Assembly (NCBI GenBank): GCA_028864975.1
Contig: JAGWLG010000003.1
Coordinates: 64,001 to 128,000 of the forward strand
Direction: 5' to 3'
DNA from: Thermoplasmata archaeon
GTDB lineage: Archaea; Thermoplasmatota; Thermoplasmata; Lutacidiplasmatales; UBA184
DNA length: 64,000 nucleotides
Part shown: positions 23,564-28,306 of the stretch, one piece after another
Layout: every line of letters starts with the position of its first letter
How positions within the stretch are numbered: position 1 is the first letter of the stretch
Translations under genes and position numbers: made by a program
Notes under the pieces: generated by a model
What the model was told of the DNA's origin: nothing
The model's database searches: none
The model's input: only the letters and a program-made list of their open reading frames with translations

Positions 23564-24736
23564 TCAGGTCGCCCTCTCCAAGAGATGGACGACGCTCGTG
23601 GCGCCCGTGCCTCCCAGGTTGTGGGTGAGACCGACCTGGGCCCCCGCGACCTGCCGCTCCTTCGCCTCGCCCCGGAGCTGTCGGACGACCTCGGCCACCT
23701 GGGCGACCCCCACCGCGCCGAAGGGCTGTCCTTGGGCCTTGAGCCCGCCGGAGGAGTTGATGGCGAGCCGGGCCCCGGGAGGGCCGACGGTGCCCTCGGC
23801 GAGGGCCTTGCCGACGCCCCCCTTCGGACAGAATCCCAGGTCCTCGAGGGCGAGGAGGGCACTGATCGAGTAGGCGTCGTGGATCTCGGCGACCTGGACG
23901 TCCGCCGGGGTCCTCTTCGCGTGGCGGAACGCCACCTGGGCGGCGAGACGGGTCGCCTCCACCGTCGTGATGTCCTTGCGGTGCTGCAGCGCGAGCGTGT
24001 CGCAGGCGACCTGGCTCGCGCAGATGCGGATGGGGGTGTCCGTGTGCTCTCTCGCCTTCTCGAGCGGGCCCAGGACCAGCGCGGAGGCCCCGTCGGAAGC
24101 GGGGGCACAGTCCATGACCCCCAGAGGTTGAGCGACGGGCGAGCCTTCCAGCACTTGGTCGAGGGAGACCTTGTTGCGGAAGTGCGCTAGGGGGTTCTTC
24201 GAGCCCATCTCGTGGGCGAGCACGGGGAAGCGCGCGAAGTCCTCTCTCCGAGTCCCGTGGTCGTGCATGTGCCGCCGGGCGATGAGCGCCCACAGCGAGG
24301 GGAGCGTCGCGCCGAAGACCGTCTCCCACTCCTGGTCCGCGCTCGCGTTCGCGATGTCCGTCTGGACATCCTCCGGGACGTCCGTCATCTTCTCGGCCCC
24401 GCCCACGACGACGTAGTCGTGCGCGCCGCTGGCGACGGCGAGGTAGGCCTGGTGCAGCGCGACCGCTCCGCTCGCTCCTCCCGCTTCGACGCGGATCGCG
24501 GGGAGATGATGGCCCGCGAGCCCCGCGTAGTCGAGGATCAGGGGGGCGATGTGCTCCTGCTCGATGAAGCTCCCCGAGGCCATGTTCCCCAGGTAGAGCG
24601 CGCTGATGTCCTTGGAGGAAAGCTTCGCCTCCTGGAGCGCGGCGAATCCCGCCTCGATCCCGATCTCCCGGAACGAGCGGTCCCAGAGCTCGCCGAACTT
24701 CGTCTGCCCGATGCCCAGGATCGCGACCTCCCGCAT
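23564..24736 (-). CDS. Archaeal/SCP2-type thiolase-fold protein with substituted catalytic motifs
   Basis: VAILGIGQTKFGE...VGGAEKMTD...DCAP.SDGA..INSSGGLKA; but EAGGASG, HDAY and GQP replace EAACASG, HDCF and GHP; start ATG 24736. Confidence 0.9.
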   Translation of the reverse strand: MREVAILGIGQTKFGELWDRSFREIGIEAGFAALQEAKLSSKDISALYLGNMASGSFIEQEHIAPLILDYAGLAGHHLPAIRVEAGGASGAVALHQAYLAVASGAHDYVVVGGAEKMTDVPEDVQTDIANASADQEWETVFGATLPSLWALIARRHMHDHGTRREDFARFPVLAHEMGSKNPLAHFRNKVSLDQVLEGSPVAQPLGVMDCAPASDGASALVLGPLEKAREHTDTPIRICASQVACDTLALQHRKDITTVEATRLAAQVAFRHAKRTPADVQVAEIHDAYSISALLALEDLGFCPKGGVGKALAEGTVGPPGARLAINSSGGLKAQGQPFGAVGVAQVAEVVRQLRGEAKERQVAGAQVGLTHNLGGTGATSVVHLLERAT

Positions 24737-24738
24737 GG

Positions 24739-25806
24739 TCAGCTCCCTCCCAGGTGGATCTTCCCGCGGAACTTCGCGTACATGGCGTAGGAGAGGGGAA
24801 CTCCCCCGTCGAGGAACTCCTGGACCGGGGGGCCGTGCTGCCGGTCGAAGCCCTCGATCCGGTCGGTGACCGTGAGGTCGAACGCGTCGGAGCCCGCGCC
24901 GCTGCCGTACCCGACGACCAACACACGGTCGCCGGCCTTGGCGTGGTCGAGCACGTTCGCGAGCCCGAGGAGCGCGGCACCGGAGTAGGTGTTGCCCACC
25001 CACGGGGTCACGAGACCGTACTTCATCTGCTGGTCGGAGAACCCCATGGACTTCCCGATGCGCTGAGGGAACTTCCCGTTGGGCTGGTGGAAAACGACGT
25101 GCTGGTAGTTCTGAGGAGAGGTCTGCGCCCGCTCCATCATGCGCCGCCCGCACTCTCCCACATGGCGGAAGTAGGCCGGCTCGCCCGTGAACCTTCCTCC
25201 GTGGCTCGGGTAGCGCTGGCCCTCCCGACGCCAGAAGTCGGGGGTGTCCGTGGTGAAGCTCTCCGTCGCGTTGATCTCCGCGATCAGGTTCTCGCGGCCG
25301 ATCACCAGCGCGGCCCCGCCAGCGCTCGCCGAGTACTCGAGAGCGTCACCGGGGGCGCCCTGGGAGGTGTCCGCGCCGATCGCGACACCGTAGGTGATCA
25401 TCTTGCTCGCCACCATCCCCATGCAGGTCTGGATGGCCGCCGTTCCCGCCTTGCAGGCGAACTCGAAGTCCGCCGCGGTGAGGTAGGGGGTCGCGCCGAC
25501 AGCCTGGGCGACGACCGTGGCCGTGGGCTTCACGGCGTACGGGTGGCTCTCGCTCCCGACGTAGAGCGCCCCGATGTCCCGGGGATTGATCTTGCCGCGG
25601 GTGAGCGCGATGCGCAGCGCCTCGGTCGAGATGGTGATGGTGTCCTCGTCCGGGGAGGGGACGCTCTTGCGGACGACGTTCAGCCCCTTTCCCATGGCGG
25701 CCCCATCGGTCCCCCAGACCTGCCCGATCTCCTGGGGCGTGATCCGGTAGCGCGGGACGTAAGCGCCGTAGCTCACGATGCCGACCTTCTCTTCGGTCAT
25801 GTCCAT
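24739..25806 (-). CDS. hmgB: Hydroxymethylglutaryl-CoA synthase (archaeal)
   Basis: [19 protein letters not shown] (catalytic Cys), FHQPNGKFP (catalytic His), GNTYSG. Confidence 0.96.
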
Positions 25807-25840
25807 TCTCCTTGCTCCTGCTCTTCGATACGGTGTCGGG

Positions 25841-26518
25841 TCAGATCTCCTCGAGACGCTTCAGGACCTCCTTCGGTCCGTACGGGGTCGTGAGGAGCGG
25901 GATGTTCTCCACCTCGGAGAGGCGGACCGCCAGAGGGTCGACGCGGCCGGGGGCGGAGTAGATGACGGCGGCGGGTTTGAGCGGGTGCGCGCGGATCGCG
26001 ACCATCGGGGAGCGACCGTACTTGACGCCGCAGAAGAGGAGGGCCCGCTGGGTCGTCCAGCCGTAGACCTGGACGAACTCCTGGGCCCCCAACGACAGGA
26101 TCGCCCGCGGGGCGTCGAGGAGGGTGAACCCGTGCAGGTCCCGGTGGAGGTCGACCCGGCTCGCGGGCTTCGCGTCCAGGAGCGAGGCGAGGGTCGTGAG
26201 GGGCACCGCGATGGAGAACTCCCGCATCGCGAGGATCCCCTCGGCGGGGGAGGGGAACCCCATCCGCTGGATGACGCGGCCTCCGTGCGACTTGTCGACG
26301 GCGACCAGCCCTTCCACGTAGCGTCGGATGAACCCGGCACCAGGGCTCTGACGCCGCTCGGCCTCGTAGTCCGCGATCACGGAGGGGACGGTCTCGAGCT
26401 GATGGGCGAGCTCCGTTTGCGAGATGCCGAAGTCCTCGCGCCATTTGCGCAACGTCCGCCCGGGATGGGGGGATAGGACTACCTCGCCCGCGATCTTCTC
26501 GCGGATCTCGACCGGCAC
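25841..26518 (-). CDS. XRE-type HTH transcriptional regulator, first gene of the HMGCS operon
   Basis: [27 protein letters not shown].....[15 protein letters not shown]...[10 protein letters not shown]. Confidence 0.88.
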
Positions 26519-26560
26519 GGAGGTGAGGGAGGGGGCGGGGTACTAAAGCCTCACGCTACT

Positions 26561-26581
26561 TGTCGAATTGCGTATTCGACA
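26561..26581. promoter_or_regulatory. Inverted repeat TGTCGAAT-N5-ATTCGACA, candidate operator
   Basis: Perfect 8-bp arms about 13 nt upstream of a TATA-like CTTTAGTA (minus strand, 26541-26548) in front of the HTH gene. Confidence 0.5.
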
Positions 26582-26655
26582 GTTCGTGTGTCCCCTGACG
26601 GTGCGGTGGCGGGAGAAGGACCTGCAGCACCGGACCGGACGATAAGGAGGGGGAG

Positions 26656-26758
26656 TGGACTGGGCGAGATGCTCAGGAGGGAGGGGGGTCCTCTCCTCCG
26701 TTTGAACTCGCGGCCTCTACCTTGCCAAGGTAGCGATCTTCCACTGATCTACCAGCCC
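26656..26758 (-). tRNA. tRNA-Ala (anticodon GGC) with a 31-nt intron at position 59/60
   Basis: Acceptor GGGCTGG/CCAGTCC with G3:U70, anticodon arm CTACC-TT-GGC-AA-GGTAG, T stem GCGAG/CTCGC; T loop TTCAAA|T split by intron 26670-26700; upstream TATA-like TATAAC at 26791-26796. Confidence 0.93.
26670..26700 (-). other. tRNA intron forming a strict bulge-helix-bulge
   Basis: CGGAGGAGAGGACCCCCCTCCCTCCTGAGCA: central helix TTCA/TGAG, bulges AA|C and CA|T, flanked by the T stem and intron helix GGAG/CTCC. Confidence 0.88.
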
Positions 26759-26826
26759 GTCTCCCCGCCGAGAGCGCGCAGACCACGGGAGTTATACCCT
26801 TTCGCTGGACTCCTCCCTCGACCTCC

Positions 26827-27792
26827 GTGCAGCTCCTCGTTTACGACGACCTCAAGCCGGAGATGGAGGCGAGCCGGGCGGCGACCCACCTCGGAGCCTT
26901 CGGCGGCTTCCTCTCGCCCTCCGAGGTCGCCATCTGGAGGAGGCTTGGGTCCTTCTCTGACTACGTCGGGGTCTTTGCGGTCGAAGCAGGGCAGGTCCTT
27001 GGCCACGCGTACGCGTTGAGGCTTCCCTACACGTACCCGGACGGCCGCGTCGAACGCGTGAGCGGGGTCGCGGGGGTGGGCTCACGACCGGACCATCGTG
27101 GGCGAGGCCTCGCGCGTCGGATGCTCGAAGAGATCCATCGAAGGGAGAGGAAGGAAGGGATCGACCACATCGCGCTCTGGACGAACCGTTCCTGGGGGGC
27201 CCACGGCATCTACGAGAGGTTGGGCTACCAGGACGTGTATGGGATCCCGCTCGCGGTCCGCGCGGTGCCGCGGACCATGCGGCCCGCCTCCAACACGGTC
27301 CGCGTTCGACACGGAAGGGTGACCGACCTACCCCGGCTCGAGGAGGTCCACGTTCGGGCGACCCGAGGGAGGATCGGGTTCACCCCCCGCCTTCCCCGGA
27401 GCCTCGTTGCCGAGCACAAGGCCCGCGCCCTCGACCCACCGAAGGACCTGCTCGTCGCCACCGACGGCGGTCGCCCGGTGGGGTATGCCCGGGTCGAGGA
27501 AGATCCCTCGCGCGTGCGATGTCCCGAGCTCCTTACCGAAGGGCCAGGGGCCGCCCTTGCCCTCATCGAAGCCATGGAACGACGTGGGCGCGGAAGGATG
27601 TGCACATGGTGCCTCTCGGCCGTTGCGGACCAGGGAGCGGAGCTCCGCCGGCGAGGGTACCTGTTCGTCCCCACCGGGTGGTACGGGATGATGGCGTGCC
27701 GGTTGCGCGGAGAAGCGAACGCTTCCCAGGTCCGGGCGGAGCTGGGGGTGGACCAGCCGCGGTGGGTCGTCCACCGCGGGGACCAGTTCTGA
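26827..27792 (+). CDS. GNAT family N-acetyltransferase (Eis-like, two GNAT domains)
   Basis: VSGVAGVGSRPDHRGRGLARRML...LWT......AHGIYERLGY. Confidence 0.85.
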   Translation: MQLLVYDDLKPEMEASRAATHLGAFGGFLSPSEVAIWRRLGSFSDYVGVFAVEAGQVLGHAYALRLPYTYPDGRVERVSGVAGVGSRPDHRGRGLARRMLEEIHRRERKEGIDHIALWTNRSWGAHGIYERLGYQDVYGIPLAVRAVPRTMRPASNTVRVRHGRVTDLPRLEEVHVRATRGRIGFTPRLPRSLVAEHKARALDPPKDLLVATDGGRPVGYARVEEDPSRVRCPELLTEGPGAALALIEAMERRGRGRMCTWCLSAVADQGAELRRRGYLFVPTGWYGMMACRLRGEANASQVRAELGVDQPRWVVHRGDQF

Positions 27793-28306
27793 GCTCTCCG
27801 AGGTCCGTCGCGACGAAGGGGGGAGGTGGTCGCACCCAGGTCGTCCCGAACCGGTCGGGGTGTTGGATGCGCATGCATCCGTGCTATGCCGTATCATGCG
27901 CTGCAAGTTCTGGTCCGTGAACCTGCCGCCCCGTTGAAGTAGCCGCTTCGCCGAATCCTTCGTTCGAGGGGGATGACGGCCACGATCGTCTGGGGAACGA
28001 ACCTCGGGTTGTTCCTTGGACACGTGAGGAGGGGGATCGATCTACGGCCGAACAAGGCTCGAGCGTTGGCGCTCGACACGTCGCCCCCTGGACCCCCTTT
28101 TGGTGTGCTCCCCCCGGACAGCCTGGGCGAGGTGGATCGACCACGGAGAGCCCCGTGCGGACGCTGGCATCCCCCTCAAGAGCCGGCATCCCCTCCGGAT
28201 GCCGCTCGGGGCCCGTGATGGTCGGCCCAGGCTGTCCCCGAGTTGGCGGGCCGTAGCTCCGGTCCTCCTCGCCAAGTCCCATATACCCCAGCCTGGTCGG
28301 CGCTCC

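What the first reader, a model, noticed from the sequence alone, without database searches (positions are those of the whole stretch)
26656..26758. tRNA-Ala(GGC) interrupted in the T-loop (59/60) by a strict BHB intron
Seen: removing 26670-26700 restores a canonical TTCAAAT T-loop and a complete cloverleaf with G3:U70. Exon/intron pairing gives T stem - 3-nt bulge - 4-bp helix (TTCA/TGAG) - 3-nt bulge - intron helix, with cuts after the second bulge nucleotide at exactly the needed positions. Established: most euryarchaeal-type tRNA introns sit at 37/38; non-canonical positions are characteristic of Thermoproteota/Thaumarchaeota and ARMAN/DPANN lineages with heteromeric or epsilon-2 splicing endonucleases. 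Inference: an unexpected non-canonical intron in a probable Thermoplasmatota genome, suggesting intron gain or transposition and perhaps an atypical EndA. Standard annotation may report this tRNA as missing.
Basis: partly seen in the sequence, partly recalled or inferred. Interest (0 to 1): 0.72.

Follow-up and report, generated by a model that had tools for sequence, protein, structure and literature searches.

The report
Alanine tRNA gene with T-loop intron
This is a real alanine tRNA gene of a soil Thermoplasmata archaeon, interrupted in its T-loop by a 31-base protein-spliced intron of a known kind. The intron is old and shared by the whole family, so it is ordinary for this lineage, although reviews say archaea with this type of splicing enzyme lack such introns.

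Summary
On the minus strand, window 26758-26656 encodes tRNA-Ala(GGC). Removing 26700-26670 gives a 73-nt cloverleaf with G3:U70 and the T-loop UUCAAAU. The unspliced RNA folds by minimum free energy into T-stem, 4-bp helix (UUCA/UGAG), two 3-nt bulges and an intron hairpin.

- **Not a recent gain.** An intron-bearing orthologue is present in 35 of 36 genomes searched in the same family. I collected 125 distinct versions, with near-invariant exons and strong compensatory change in the intron helix.
- **Gained at the family's base.** Sister families carry the same tRNA without an intron, with an identical T-arm, or with a canonical 37/38 intron.
- **Not unusual in this genome.** At least nine of its tRNA genes carry 59/60 introns.
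- **The splicing endonuclease is not atypical.** It is a single alpha2-type gene with the Tyr/His/Lys triad, no crenarchaeal-type loop and no family-specific insert. RtcB ligase is present.

A second, intron-less Ala(GGC)-like gene lies on another contig near an integrase. It is missing from the three congeners, so it looks accessory.

Splicing itself is inferred, because no RNA data were available. Earlier follow-ups of this scan reported other T-loop-intron tRNAs in this same genome, and I re-derived that count independently.

Verdict: a new member of a known kind. The lineage-level pattern contradicts published generalisations.

The parts
26656..26758 (-). tRNA-Ala(GGC) gene including its intron (5' end G1 at 26758, discriminator A73 at 26656; no encoded CCA)
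   Evidence: Sequence; partial Rfam tRNA hit; ARAGORN call on the spliced form; orthologues in 35 of 36 family genomes
26701..26758 (-). Exon 1 (tRNA positions 1-59): acceptor 5' strand with G3, D-arm, anticodon arm, variable loop, T-stem 5' strand GCGAG (26711-26707), T-loop UUCAAA
26724..26726 (-). Anticodon GGC
26670..26700 (-). 31-nt BHB intron at 59/60. First base C (26700) is the third base of the 5' bulge. The hairpin h' spans 26699-26676. TGAG (26675-26672) is the 3' strand of the central helix. CA (26671-26670) opens the 3' bulge.
   Evidence: MFE fold; covariation of h' in 125 orthologues and in alignment A1
26703..26706 (-). UUCA (T54-A57), the 5' strand of the 4-bp central helix. 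It pairs with UGAG at 26675-26672.
26656..26669 (-). Exon 2 (positions 60-73): U60, T-stem 3' strand CTCGC (26668-26664), acceptor 3' strand CCAGTCC with U70, A73
26792..26802 (-). Likely archaeal promoter: TATAA at 26796-26792 preceded by purines, 34-38 nt upstream of G1
   Evidence: Sequence. In 125 distinct upstream regions of orthologues, positions -33 to -28 are 51-90% A/T (85-90% at -31 to -29) against about 20% background, preceded by A-rich -38 to -36. The function is inferred.

Best explanation
Its transcript carries a 31-nt archaeal bulge-helix-bulge intron between positions 59 and 60 of the T-loop.

In the precursor, T54-A57 pair with UGAG near the 3' end of the intron. That helix stacks on the T-stem and presents two 3-nt bulges, 4 bp apart. 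This geometry is the T-arm equivalent of the canonical 37/38 intron in the anticodon arm.

The genome's single homodimeric (alpha2-type) splicing endonuclease would cut after the second base of each bulge, and RtcB would join the halves. The product is UUCAAAU in the T-loop and a normal cloverleaf.

The intron was acquired in the common ancestor of this Thermoplasmata family and has been kept ever since. It is one of at least nine T-loop introns in this genome.

Shown here: the gene, the motif, its conservation and covariation, the enzyme inventory, and the intron-less state in sister families. Inferred: transcription, cleavage by EndA and ligation.
For: 1. The MFE fold of the precursor is a cloverleaf plus hBHBh'.
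2. The spliced sequence is called tRNA-Ala(GGC) by ARAGORN and folds to a cloverleaf at -28.9 kcal/mol. G3:U70 and A73 are present.
3. BLAST against 60 relatives gave full-length matches, intron included, in the family. Sequence inspection shows 35 of 36 family genomes carry the intron-bearing gene. In the remaining one, G029, no Ala(GGC) gene was found.
5. Across 125 distinct sequences the introns are 27-36 nt long and U60 is invariant. Helix h' pairs in 667 of 750 cells against 458 +/- 10 in shuffles and 183-444 in slid registers, and pairs 3-6 use all six pair types. RNAalifold finds 7 pairs with double compensatory changes.
6. The sister family f2 (4 of 4 genomes) has an intron-less Ala(GGC) with the identical T-arm GCGAG-TTCAAAT-CTCGC. 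It is 66/73 identical to the predicted spliced product.
7. EndA is one ORF of 374 aa with the domain order N-C-N-C. It aligns full-length to the A. fulgidus alpha2 enzyme. It has Tyr/His/Lys in the C-terminal unit and a gap where A. pernix has its specific loop.
8. RtcB is present at 565 bits.
9. A conserved BRE/TATA-like element lies upstream.
Against: - There is no RNA evidence: no RNA run was listed for this DNA, so splicing is inferred.
- The genome is a MAG, 89.6% complete with 124 contigs. A second endonuclease subunit cannot be strictly excluded, although none was found in any of the 59 relatives that have EndA.
- In about 117 of the 125 orthologues the fourth pair of the central helix is A57.G rather than a standard pair. 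For most of the family the motif is therefore not strictly canonical, and alpha2 enzymes are described as requiring the strict motif (PMC3239211).
- An intron-less Ala(GGC)-like gene exists elsewhere in this genome and could in principle supply the function.
Confidence: 0.88

Rival explanations
1. The interrupted gene is a disabled relic. GCC/GCU decoding is done by the intron-less Ala(GGC)-like gene at C2:71816-71889, or by wobble from tRNA-Ala(UGC).
For: An intron-less gene with G3:U70 and anticodon GGC scores 56.5 bits with Rfam's tRNA model. No RNA evidence for splicing is available.
Against: - The C2 gene was not found in the three same-genus genomes or in any other relative.
- It has C33 instead of the near-universal U33.
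- It lies 1.7 kb from a phage-integrase-family gene, among ORFs without Pfam matches.
- The interrupted gene has near-invariant exons, a conserved promoter-like element and compensatory changes that keep the splice motif in 125 distinct orthologues. A relic would not show this.
Confidence: 0.04
2. The intron is real, but its removal in this family depends on a broadened or additional activity rather than a standard strict alpha2 EndA. The reason would be that most family members present an A.G mismatch in the central helix.
For: The helix strand opposite UUCA is GGAA, GGAG, GGGA or GGGG in 117 of 125 orthologues. Six of the nine T-loop introns of this genome have at most 3 of 4 standard pairs. 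Reviews state that alpha2 and alpha4 enzymes cut only strict motifs (PMC3239211, PMC4033280).
Against: - In this window the motif is strict, 4 of 4 pairs, so no relaxed activity is needed here.
- EndA shows no CSL-type insert and no family-specific indel relative to sister families.
- Only one EndA locus was found per genome in the 59 relatives that have a match.
- A single A.G next to a bulge is a much milder departure than the hBH and HBh' forms that A. fulgidus EndA fails on (PMC5829648).
Confidence: 0.12
3. The fold is a chance BHB-like structure in an insertion of another kind (a mobile element remnant or an assembly artefact) inside a tRNA gene.
For: BHB-like motifs are frequent by chance in this GC-rich genome: about 179,000 candidates.
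Against: The same insertion point, a similar length (27-36 nt) and the same geometry recur in independently assembled MAGs from many studies, with covariation. The intron has no repeats or coding capacity.
Confidence: 0.01

Closest known systems
59/60 introns of Candidatus Micrarchaeum acidiphilum ARMAN-2: pre-tRNA-Pro(GGG) (strict hBHBh' at 53/54 and 59/60) and pre-tRNA-Cys(GCA) (hBH at 59/60); Fujishima et al. 2011, PMC3239211
   Same: Same insertion point in the T-loop. The Pro(GGG) case has the same strict 3-4-3 motif built on the T-stem.
   Different: ARMAN-2 has the three-unit epsilon2 endonuclease with a specific loop and broad specificity. This genome has a plain alpha2 enzyme. The tRNA identity and the phylum also differ.
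Non-canonical-position BHB introns of Crenarchaeota/Thermoproteales and Thaumarchaeota (positions including 59/60 are listed in Yoshihisa 2014, PMC4090602)
   Same: A short protein-spliced intron carrying a transplantable BHB motif outside the anticodon loop, with many tRNA genes affected in one genome.
   Different: Those lineages have heterotetrameric (alpha-beta)2 endonucleases with the crenarchaeal loop and often relaxed motifs. Here the enzyme is alpha2 without that loop, and the introns cluster at one site, 59/60.
Canonical 37/38 hBHBh' introns of Euryarchaeota cut by alpha2 EndA (A. fulgidus, H. volcanii)
   Same: Same motif geometry and the same enzyme class. 59/60 is the sixth/seventh loop position of the T-arm, just as 37/38 is of the anticodon arm. 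Alanine tRNA(GGC) of sister lineages (family f3 and genomes G044, G056) carries such a canonical intron.
   Different: The position differs. The review literature says euryarchaea with alpha4 or alpha2 enzymes have only single canonical-position introns (PMC4090602).
Methanopyrus kandleri pre-tRNA-Glu(UUC) with a D-loop HBh' intron (Kaneta et al. 2018, PMC5829648)
   Same: A euryarchaeal-grade lineage with a non-canonical-position intron and an endonuclease that lacks the broad-specificity loop.
   Different: M. kandleri EndA is (alpha-beta)2. That intron is in the D-loop and relaxed, whereas this one is in the T-loop and strict.

Membership tests
Archaeal BHB (hBHBh') tRNA intron | Two 3-nt bulges on opposite strands separated by a 4-bp helix | tested here: met
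   MFE fold: UUCA/UGAG with bulges AAC and CAU. In most relatives the fourth pair is A.G.
Archaeal BHB (hBHBh') tRNA intron | Flanking helices h (exon-exon) and h' (intron-intron) | tested here: met
   h is the 5-bp T-stem. h' is a 5+4-bp hairpin, supported by covariation.
Archaeal BHB (hBHBh') tRNA intron | Cuts after the second base of each bulge give a functional tRNA | tested here: met
   The spliced sequence is a 73-nt cloverleaf tRNA-Ala(GGC). It is 66/73 identical to the intron-less orthologue of the sister family.
Archaeal BHB (hBHBh') tRNA intron | Intron is removed in vivo or in vitro by EndA | not testable with these tools
Intron at non-canonical position 59/60 | Insertion between T-loop nucleotides 59 and 60 | tested here: met
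   Exon 1 ends UUCAAA and exon 2 starts U-CUCGC. The one-base ambiguity in this sequence is resolved by relatives whose last intron base is not A.
tRNA-Ala | G3:U70 identity pair, anticodon NGC, A73 | tested here: met
   G3:U70 is invariant in all 26 aligned sequences.
alpha2 (homodimeric) splicing endonuclease | Two tandem EndA units in one polypeptide, encoded by a single gene | tested here: met
   Pfam N-C-N-C in a 374-aa ORF. Full-length alignment to A. fulgidus 1R0V/2GJW. The same layout was found in 59 of 61 genomes searched.
alpha2 (homodimeric) splicing endonuclease | Catalytic Tyr/His/Lys in the C-terminal unit | tested here: met
   The motifs FRAY, SHARYLV and VRK align to the M. jannaschii 1A79 catalytic residues and are conserved in the family.
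alpha2 (homodimeric) splicing endonuclease | Dimer formation | not testable with these tools
   Not modelled.
(alpha-beta)2 or epsilon2 broad-specificity endonuclease | Separate structural subunit gene or three-unit polypeptide, with a specific loop (CSL or ASL) | tested here: not met
   Only one EndA locus was found. There is a 9-10-residue gap where A. pernix 3P1Z_B has its loop. No family-specific insert is present.

The most novel reading that the evidence does not exclude
The Ala(GGC) intron is one instance of a family-wide spread of T-loop (59/60) introns into about a fifth of the tRNA genes of a Thermoplasmata lineage. This lineage's only splicing endonuclease is a plain alpha2 enzyme without any broad-specificity loop, and most of the motifs carry an A.G in the central helix. 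If so, alpha2 enzymes handle non-canonical positions and mildly relaxed motifs in vivo. The textbook rule that ties disrupted tRNA genes to (alpha-beta)2 or epsilon2 enzymes would then fail for a whole clade.
Probability: 0.6. Interest if true: 0.55.

Novelty: new member of a known kind. Interest (0 to 1): 0.38.

Why it matters
For annotation: default tools miss or truncate this gene, so genomes of this family look as if they lack tRNA-Ala(GGC) and eight other tRNAs.

For biology: reviews state that euryarchaea with alpha4 or alpha2 endonucleases have few introns, one per gene, and only at 37/38 (PMC4090602, PMC4033280). This family has the alpha2 enzyme yet keeps many T-loop introns over long evolutionary time. 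Intron position is therefore not limited by enzyme architecture when the motif stays near-strict. The dated gain, present in family f1 and absent in f2 and f3, offers a clean case for studying how tRNA introns arise.

Tried and rejected
- **ARAGORN with intron search on the whole genome.** It gave 110 calls, many with kilobase 'introns', and was useless as a census.
- **A first T-loop regex scan without BHB and U8 filters.** It gave 359 mostly false hits and was replaced by a filtered scan.
- **A two-intron pair scan.** It produced mostly false combinations.
- **Expression evidence.** No RNA holder was listed for window 25600-27800.
- **att-site repeats of the C2 tRNA.** None of 13 nt or more was found on its contig.
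- **Literature.** The Lutacidiplasmatales paper (PMC9287336) does not mention tRNA introns. A 2026 preprint on Asgard tRNA introns does not mention Thermoplasmata or 59/60. No paper in the held library describes 59/60 introns in Thermoplasmata. The library is incomplete, so this is not proof that none exists.
- **Hypotheses considered and rejected.**
  - Group I or II intron: 31 nt is too short.
  - Split or permuted tRNA: both halves are contiguous.
  - C/D box RNA in the intron: it is too short and has no boxes.
- **Sequence relation of the Ala intron to the other eight T-loop introns of this genome.** It was not significant; the best z was 2.6.

Full report
**What is there.**

Reading the minus strand from window 26758 gives a tRNA 5' part: acceptor strand GGGCTGG, U8, D-arm GATC/GATC, anticodon arm CTACC-TTGGCAA-GGTAG, variable loop AGGCC and T-stem strand GCGAG. 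After TTCAAA comes a 31-nt GC-rich insert (26700-26670). Then follow T-CTCGC-CCAGTCC-A, ending at 26656.

ARAGORN does not call the gene. Rfam's tRNA model aligns only 26758-26703 and scores 30.7 bits against a cut-off of 29.

With 26670-26700 removed, ARAGORN calls a 73-nt tRNA-Ala(GGC). ViennaRNA folds it to a cloverleaf at -28.9 kcal/mol, with G3:U70 and A73.

The 104-nt precursor folds at minimum free energy (-45.6 kcal/mol, z = -3.2) into the three normal arms plus the T-stem. The T-stem is stacked on a 4-bp helix UUCA/UGAG, which is flanked by the bulges A58-A59-C and C-A-U60 and by an intron hairpin. That is a strict hBHBh' motif, with both cuts after the second bulge base.

**Is it more than chance?**

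A BHB-like fold alone is not informative in this 67% GC genome. My scan found about 179,000 motif candidates. The comparative evidence is decisive instead.

- A BLAST of the region against 60 relatives matched the whole gene, intron included, throughout the same family.
- Inspection of the sequences shows an intron-bearing Ala(GGC) gene in 35 of 36 family genomes, spanning 7 genera. In G029, which is 88% complete, only the CGC and UGC isoacceptors were found.
- One of the 36 genomes (G028, locus L023) is flagged as unpublished. Without it the count is 34 of 35. It also contributes one sequence to the 125 below, and no conclusion depends on it.
All are labelled Thermoplasmata or Candidatus Lutacidiplasmatales, and the isolate names recognised (AcS/SubAcS, SPRUCE) point to soil or peat.

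Across 125 distinct sequences:
- Introns are 27-36 nt and U60 is invariant.
- The first six pairs of the intron helix are paired in 667 of 750 cells. Partner shuffles give 458 +/- 10, and slid registers give 183-444.
- Pairs 3-6 use all six standard pair types.

RNAalifold on 26 family sequences recovers the cloverleaf, T-stem and intron helix, with seven pairs showing double compensatory changes. The exons are almost invariant.

Upstream, an A/T-rich element lies at -33 to -28, reaching 90% A/T against about 20% background. It is preceded by an A-rich stretch and is conserved, as expected for an archaeal BRE/TATA promoter. In the window the corresponding TATAA is at 26796-26792.

**When was the intron gained?**

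Outside the family the same tRNA exists without the T-loop intron.
- Family f2 of the same order (4 of 4 genomes) has an intron-less Ala(GGC) with the identical T-arm GCGAG-TTCAAAT-CTCGC. It is 66/73 identical to the predicted spliced product.
- Family f3 (2 of 2) and two other class members (G044, G056) have a canonical 37/38 intron instead.
- Ten further class genomes inspected are intron-less.

The simplest reading is one gain at the base of family f1 followed by stable inheritance. It is not a recent event in this genome.

In genus g1, which includes the window, the strand opposite UUCA is UGAG or UGAA, so all four pairs form.

**How routine is it here?**

My own scans of the genome found T-loop 59/60 introns in nine tRNA genes. 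The methods were a BHB scan followed by ARAGORN on the spliced sequences, a T-loop-anchored scan, and inspection of weak Rfam hits. The nine are:
- Ala(GGC)
- Asp(GTC)
- His(GTG)
- Ser(GCT)
- Ser(GGA)
- Gly(TCC)
- Arg(TCG)
- Asn(GTT)
- Lys(TTT), which also has a D-loop intron

This rests. It agrees with earlier follow-ups of this scan on other pieces of the same genome.

The His intron is likewise family-wide. It also occurs in a genome of another family of the class, G055.

**The enzymes.**

The genome has one EndA locus, an ORF of 374 aa with Pfam order N-C-N-C.
- It aligns over its full length to the homodimeric A. fulgidus enzyme.
- It has the catalytic Tyr, His and Lys in the C-terminal unit.
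- It shows a 9-10-residue gap exactly where the A. pernix catalytic subunit carries its specific loop.

In 59 of 61 genomes searched in the family, order and class there is the same single two-unit locus. Two genomes gave no match. An alignment of EndAs from f1, f2, f3 and other families is colinear, with no f1-specific insert. RtcB ligase is present.

Nothing suggests an atypical enzyme. Archaeal EndA recognises the BHB independently of the mature domain (Yoshihisa 2014, PMC4090602, calls the splice sites transplantable). A strict motif at 59/60 should therefore be a normal substrate.

**The second gene.**

C2:71816-71889 encodes an intron-less Ala(GGC)-like tRNA with G3:U70, at 56.5 bits. 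Several features mark it as probably accessory.
- It has C33.
- Its D-arm and anticodon stem differ from the host's other alanine tRNAs.
- It was not found in the three congeners or in other relatives.
- A phage-integrase-family gene and a DUF1643 gene lie 1.7-2.5 kb downstream, among ORFs without Pfam matches.

It is probably carried on a mobile element, and it does not explain the conservation of the interrupted gene.

**Comparison with what is known.**

Position 59/60 is a listed non-canonical site (PMC4090602). It is documented in ARAGORN-missed ARMAN-2 tRNAs, namely tRNA-Pro(GGG) and tRNA-Cys(GCA) (PMC3239211). The kind is therefore known.

What differs is the lineage and the enzyme context. 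Reviews state that euryarchaea with alpha4 or alpha2 enzymes have only single canonical introns (PMC4090602). They also state that alpha2 and alpha4 enzymes cut only canonical motifs (PMC4033280, PMC3239211). I found no paper in the held library that describes T-loop introns in Thermoplasmata.

**Surroundings.**

The gene lies in a 308-bp gap between an HTH-domain gene (25841-26518, minus) and a GNAT acetyltransferase gene (26827-27792, plus). Thiolase and HMG-CoA synthase genes lie further downstream of the tRNA gene, at lower window coordinates. The ORF 26588-27019 that overlaps the tRNA has no family match and is probably spurious.

**Verdict.**

This is a real and almost certainly functional tRNA-Ala(GGC) gene with a strict BHB intron at 59/60. 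It is ancient within its family, routine in its genome and served by an ordinary alpha2 endonuclease. As a single gene it is a new member of a known kind. The lineage-wide pattern is the more interesting point, and it still lacks RNA or biochemical proof.

Noticed in passing
L175:5017-5090 (= G000:C2:71816-71889), with L175:6735-8005: An intron-less tRNA-Ala(GGC)-like gene with G3:U70 but C33. It is absent from the three congeners. A phage-integrase-family gene and a DUF1643 gene lie 1.7-2.5 kb downstream, among ORFs without Pfam hits. It is possibly borne on a mobile element. No att repeat was found.
   Followed up: partly
G000: C119:61570-61674(-), C93:18312-18421(+), C32:~146500-146600(-), C104:121065-121190(+), C50:11378-11480(+), C59:125420-125530(+), C100:10300-10410(-), C38:9218-9370(+): Eight further tRNA genes of this genome carry 59/60 T-loop introns of 28-41 nt: Asp, His, Ser(GCT), Ser(GGA), Gly(TCC), Arg(TCG), Asn and Lys(TTT). 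Lys(TTT) also has a D-loop intron. Only Ala, Gly and Lys have 4 of 4 standard pairs in the central helix.
   Followed up: partly
L204:23-132 and L205 (own His and Asp genes): The introns of tRNA-Asp, tRNA-His and tRNA-Ser(GGA) are more alike than shuffled controls (z 5.1 and 4.3), and Asp and His share a 3' end of CCGCC-N-TCGGAGAC. This hints at intron duplication or transposition between tRNA genes. The controls were simple mononucleotide shuffles.
   Followed up: partly
L240:20-130 (G055, another family of the class): tRNA-His(GTG) of a different Thermoplasmata family also carries a 59/60 intron ending GGAAAC. T-loop introns are therefore not confined to family f1.
   Followed up: no
L177, L179, L162, L185: In family f3 and in genomes G044 and G056, tRNA-Ala(GGC) has a canonical 37/38 intron instead of the T-loop intron. 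The same tRNA has thus been interrupted at different sites in different Thermoplasmata lineages.
   Followed up: partly
Orthologue set (loci L001-L154), intron positions -6 to -3: A G opposite A57 (an A.G in the central helix) is conserved in 117 of 125 distinct orthologues. Only genus g1 has U there. It is unexplained why the non-standard pair is kept.
   Followed up: partly
window 23564-25806 (-): Thiolase and HMG-CoA synthase-like genes lie next to each other, as in the archaeal mevalonate-pathway cluster.
   Followed up: no
whole genome G000: The assembly (3.6 Mb, 124 contigs) is larger than its three congeners (2.5-3.0 Mb) and than the other family genomes searched (1.4-2.5 Mb).
   Followed up: no
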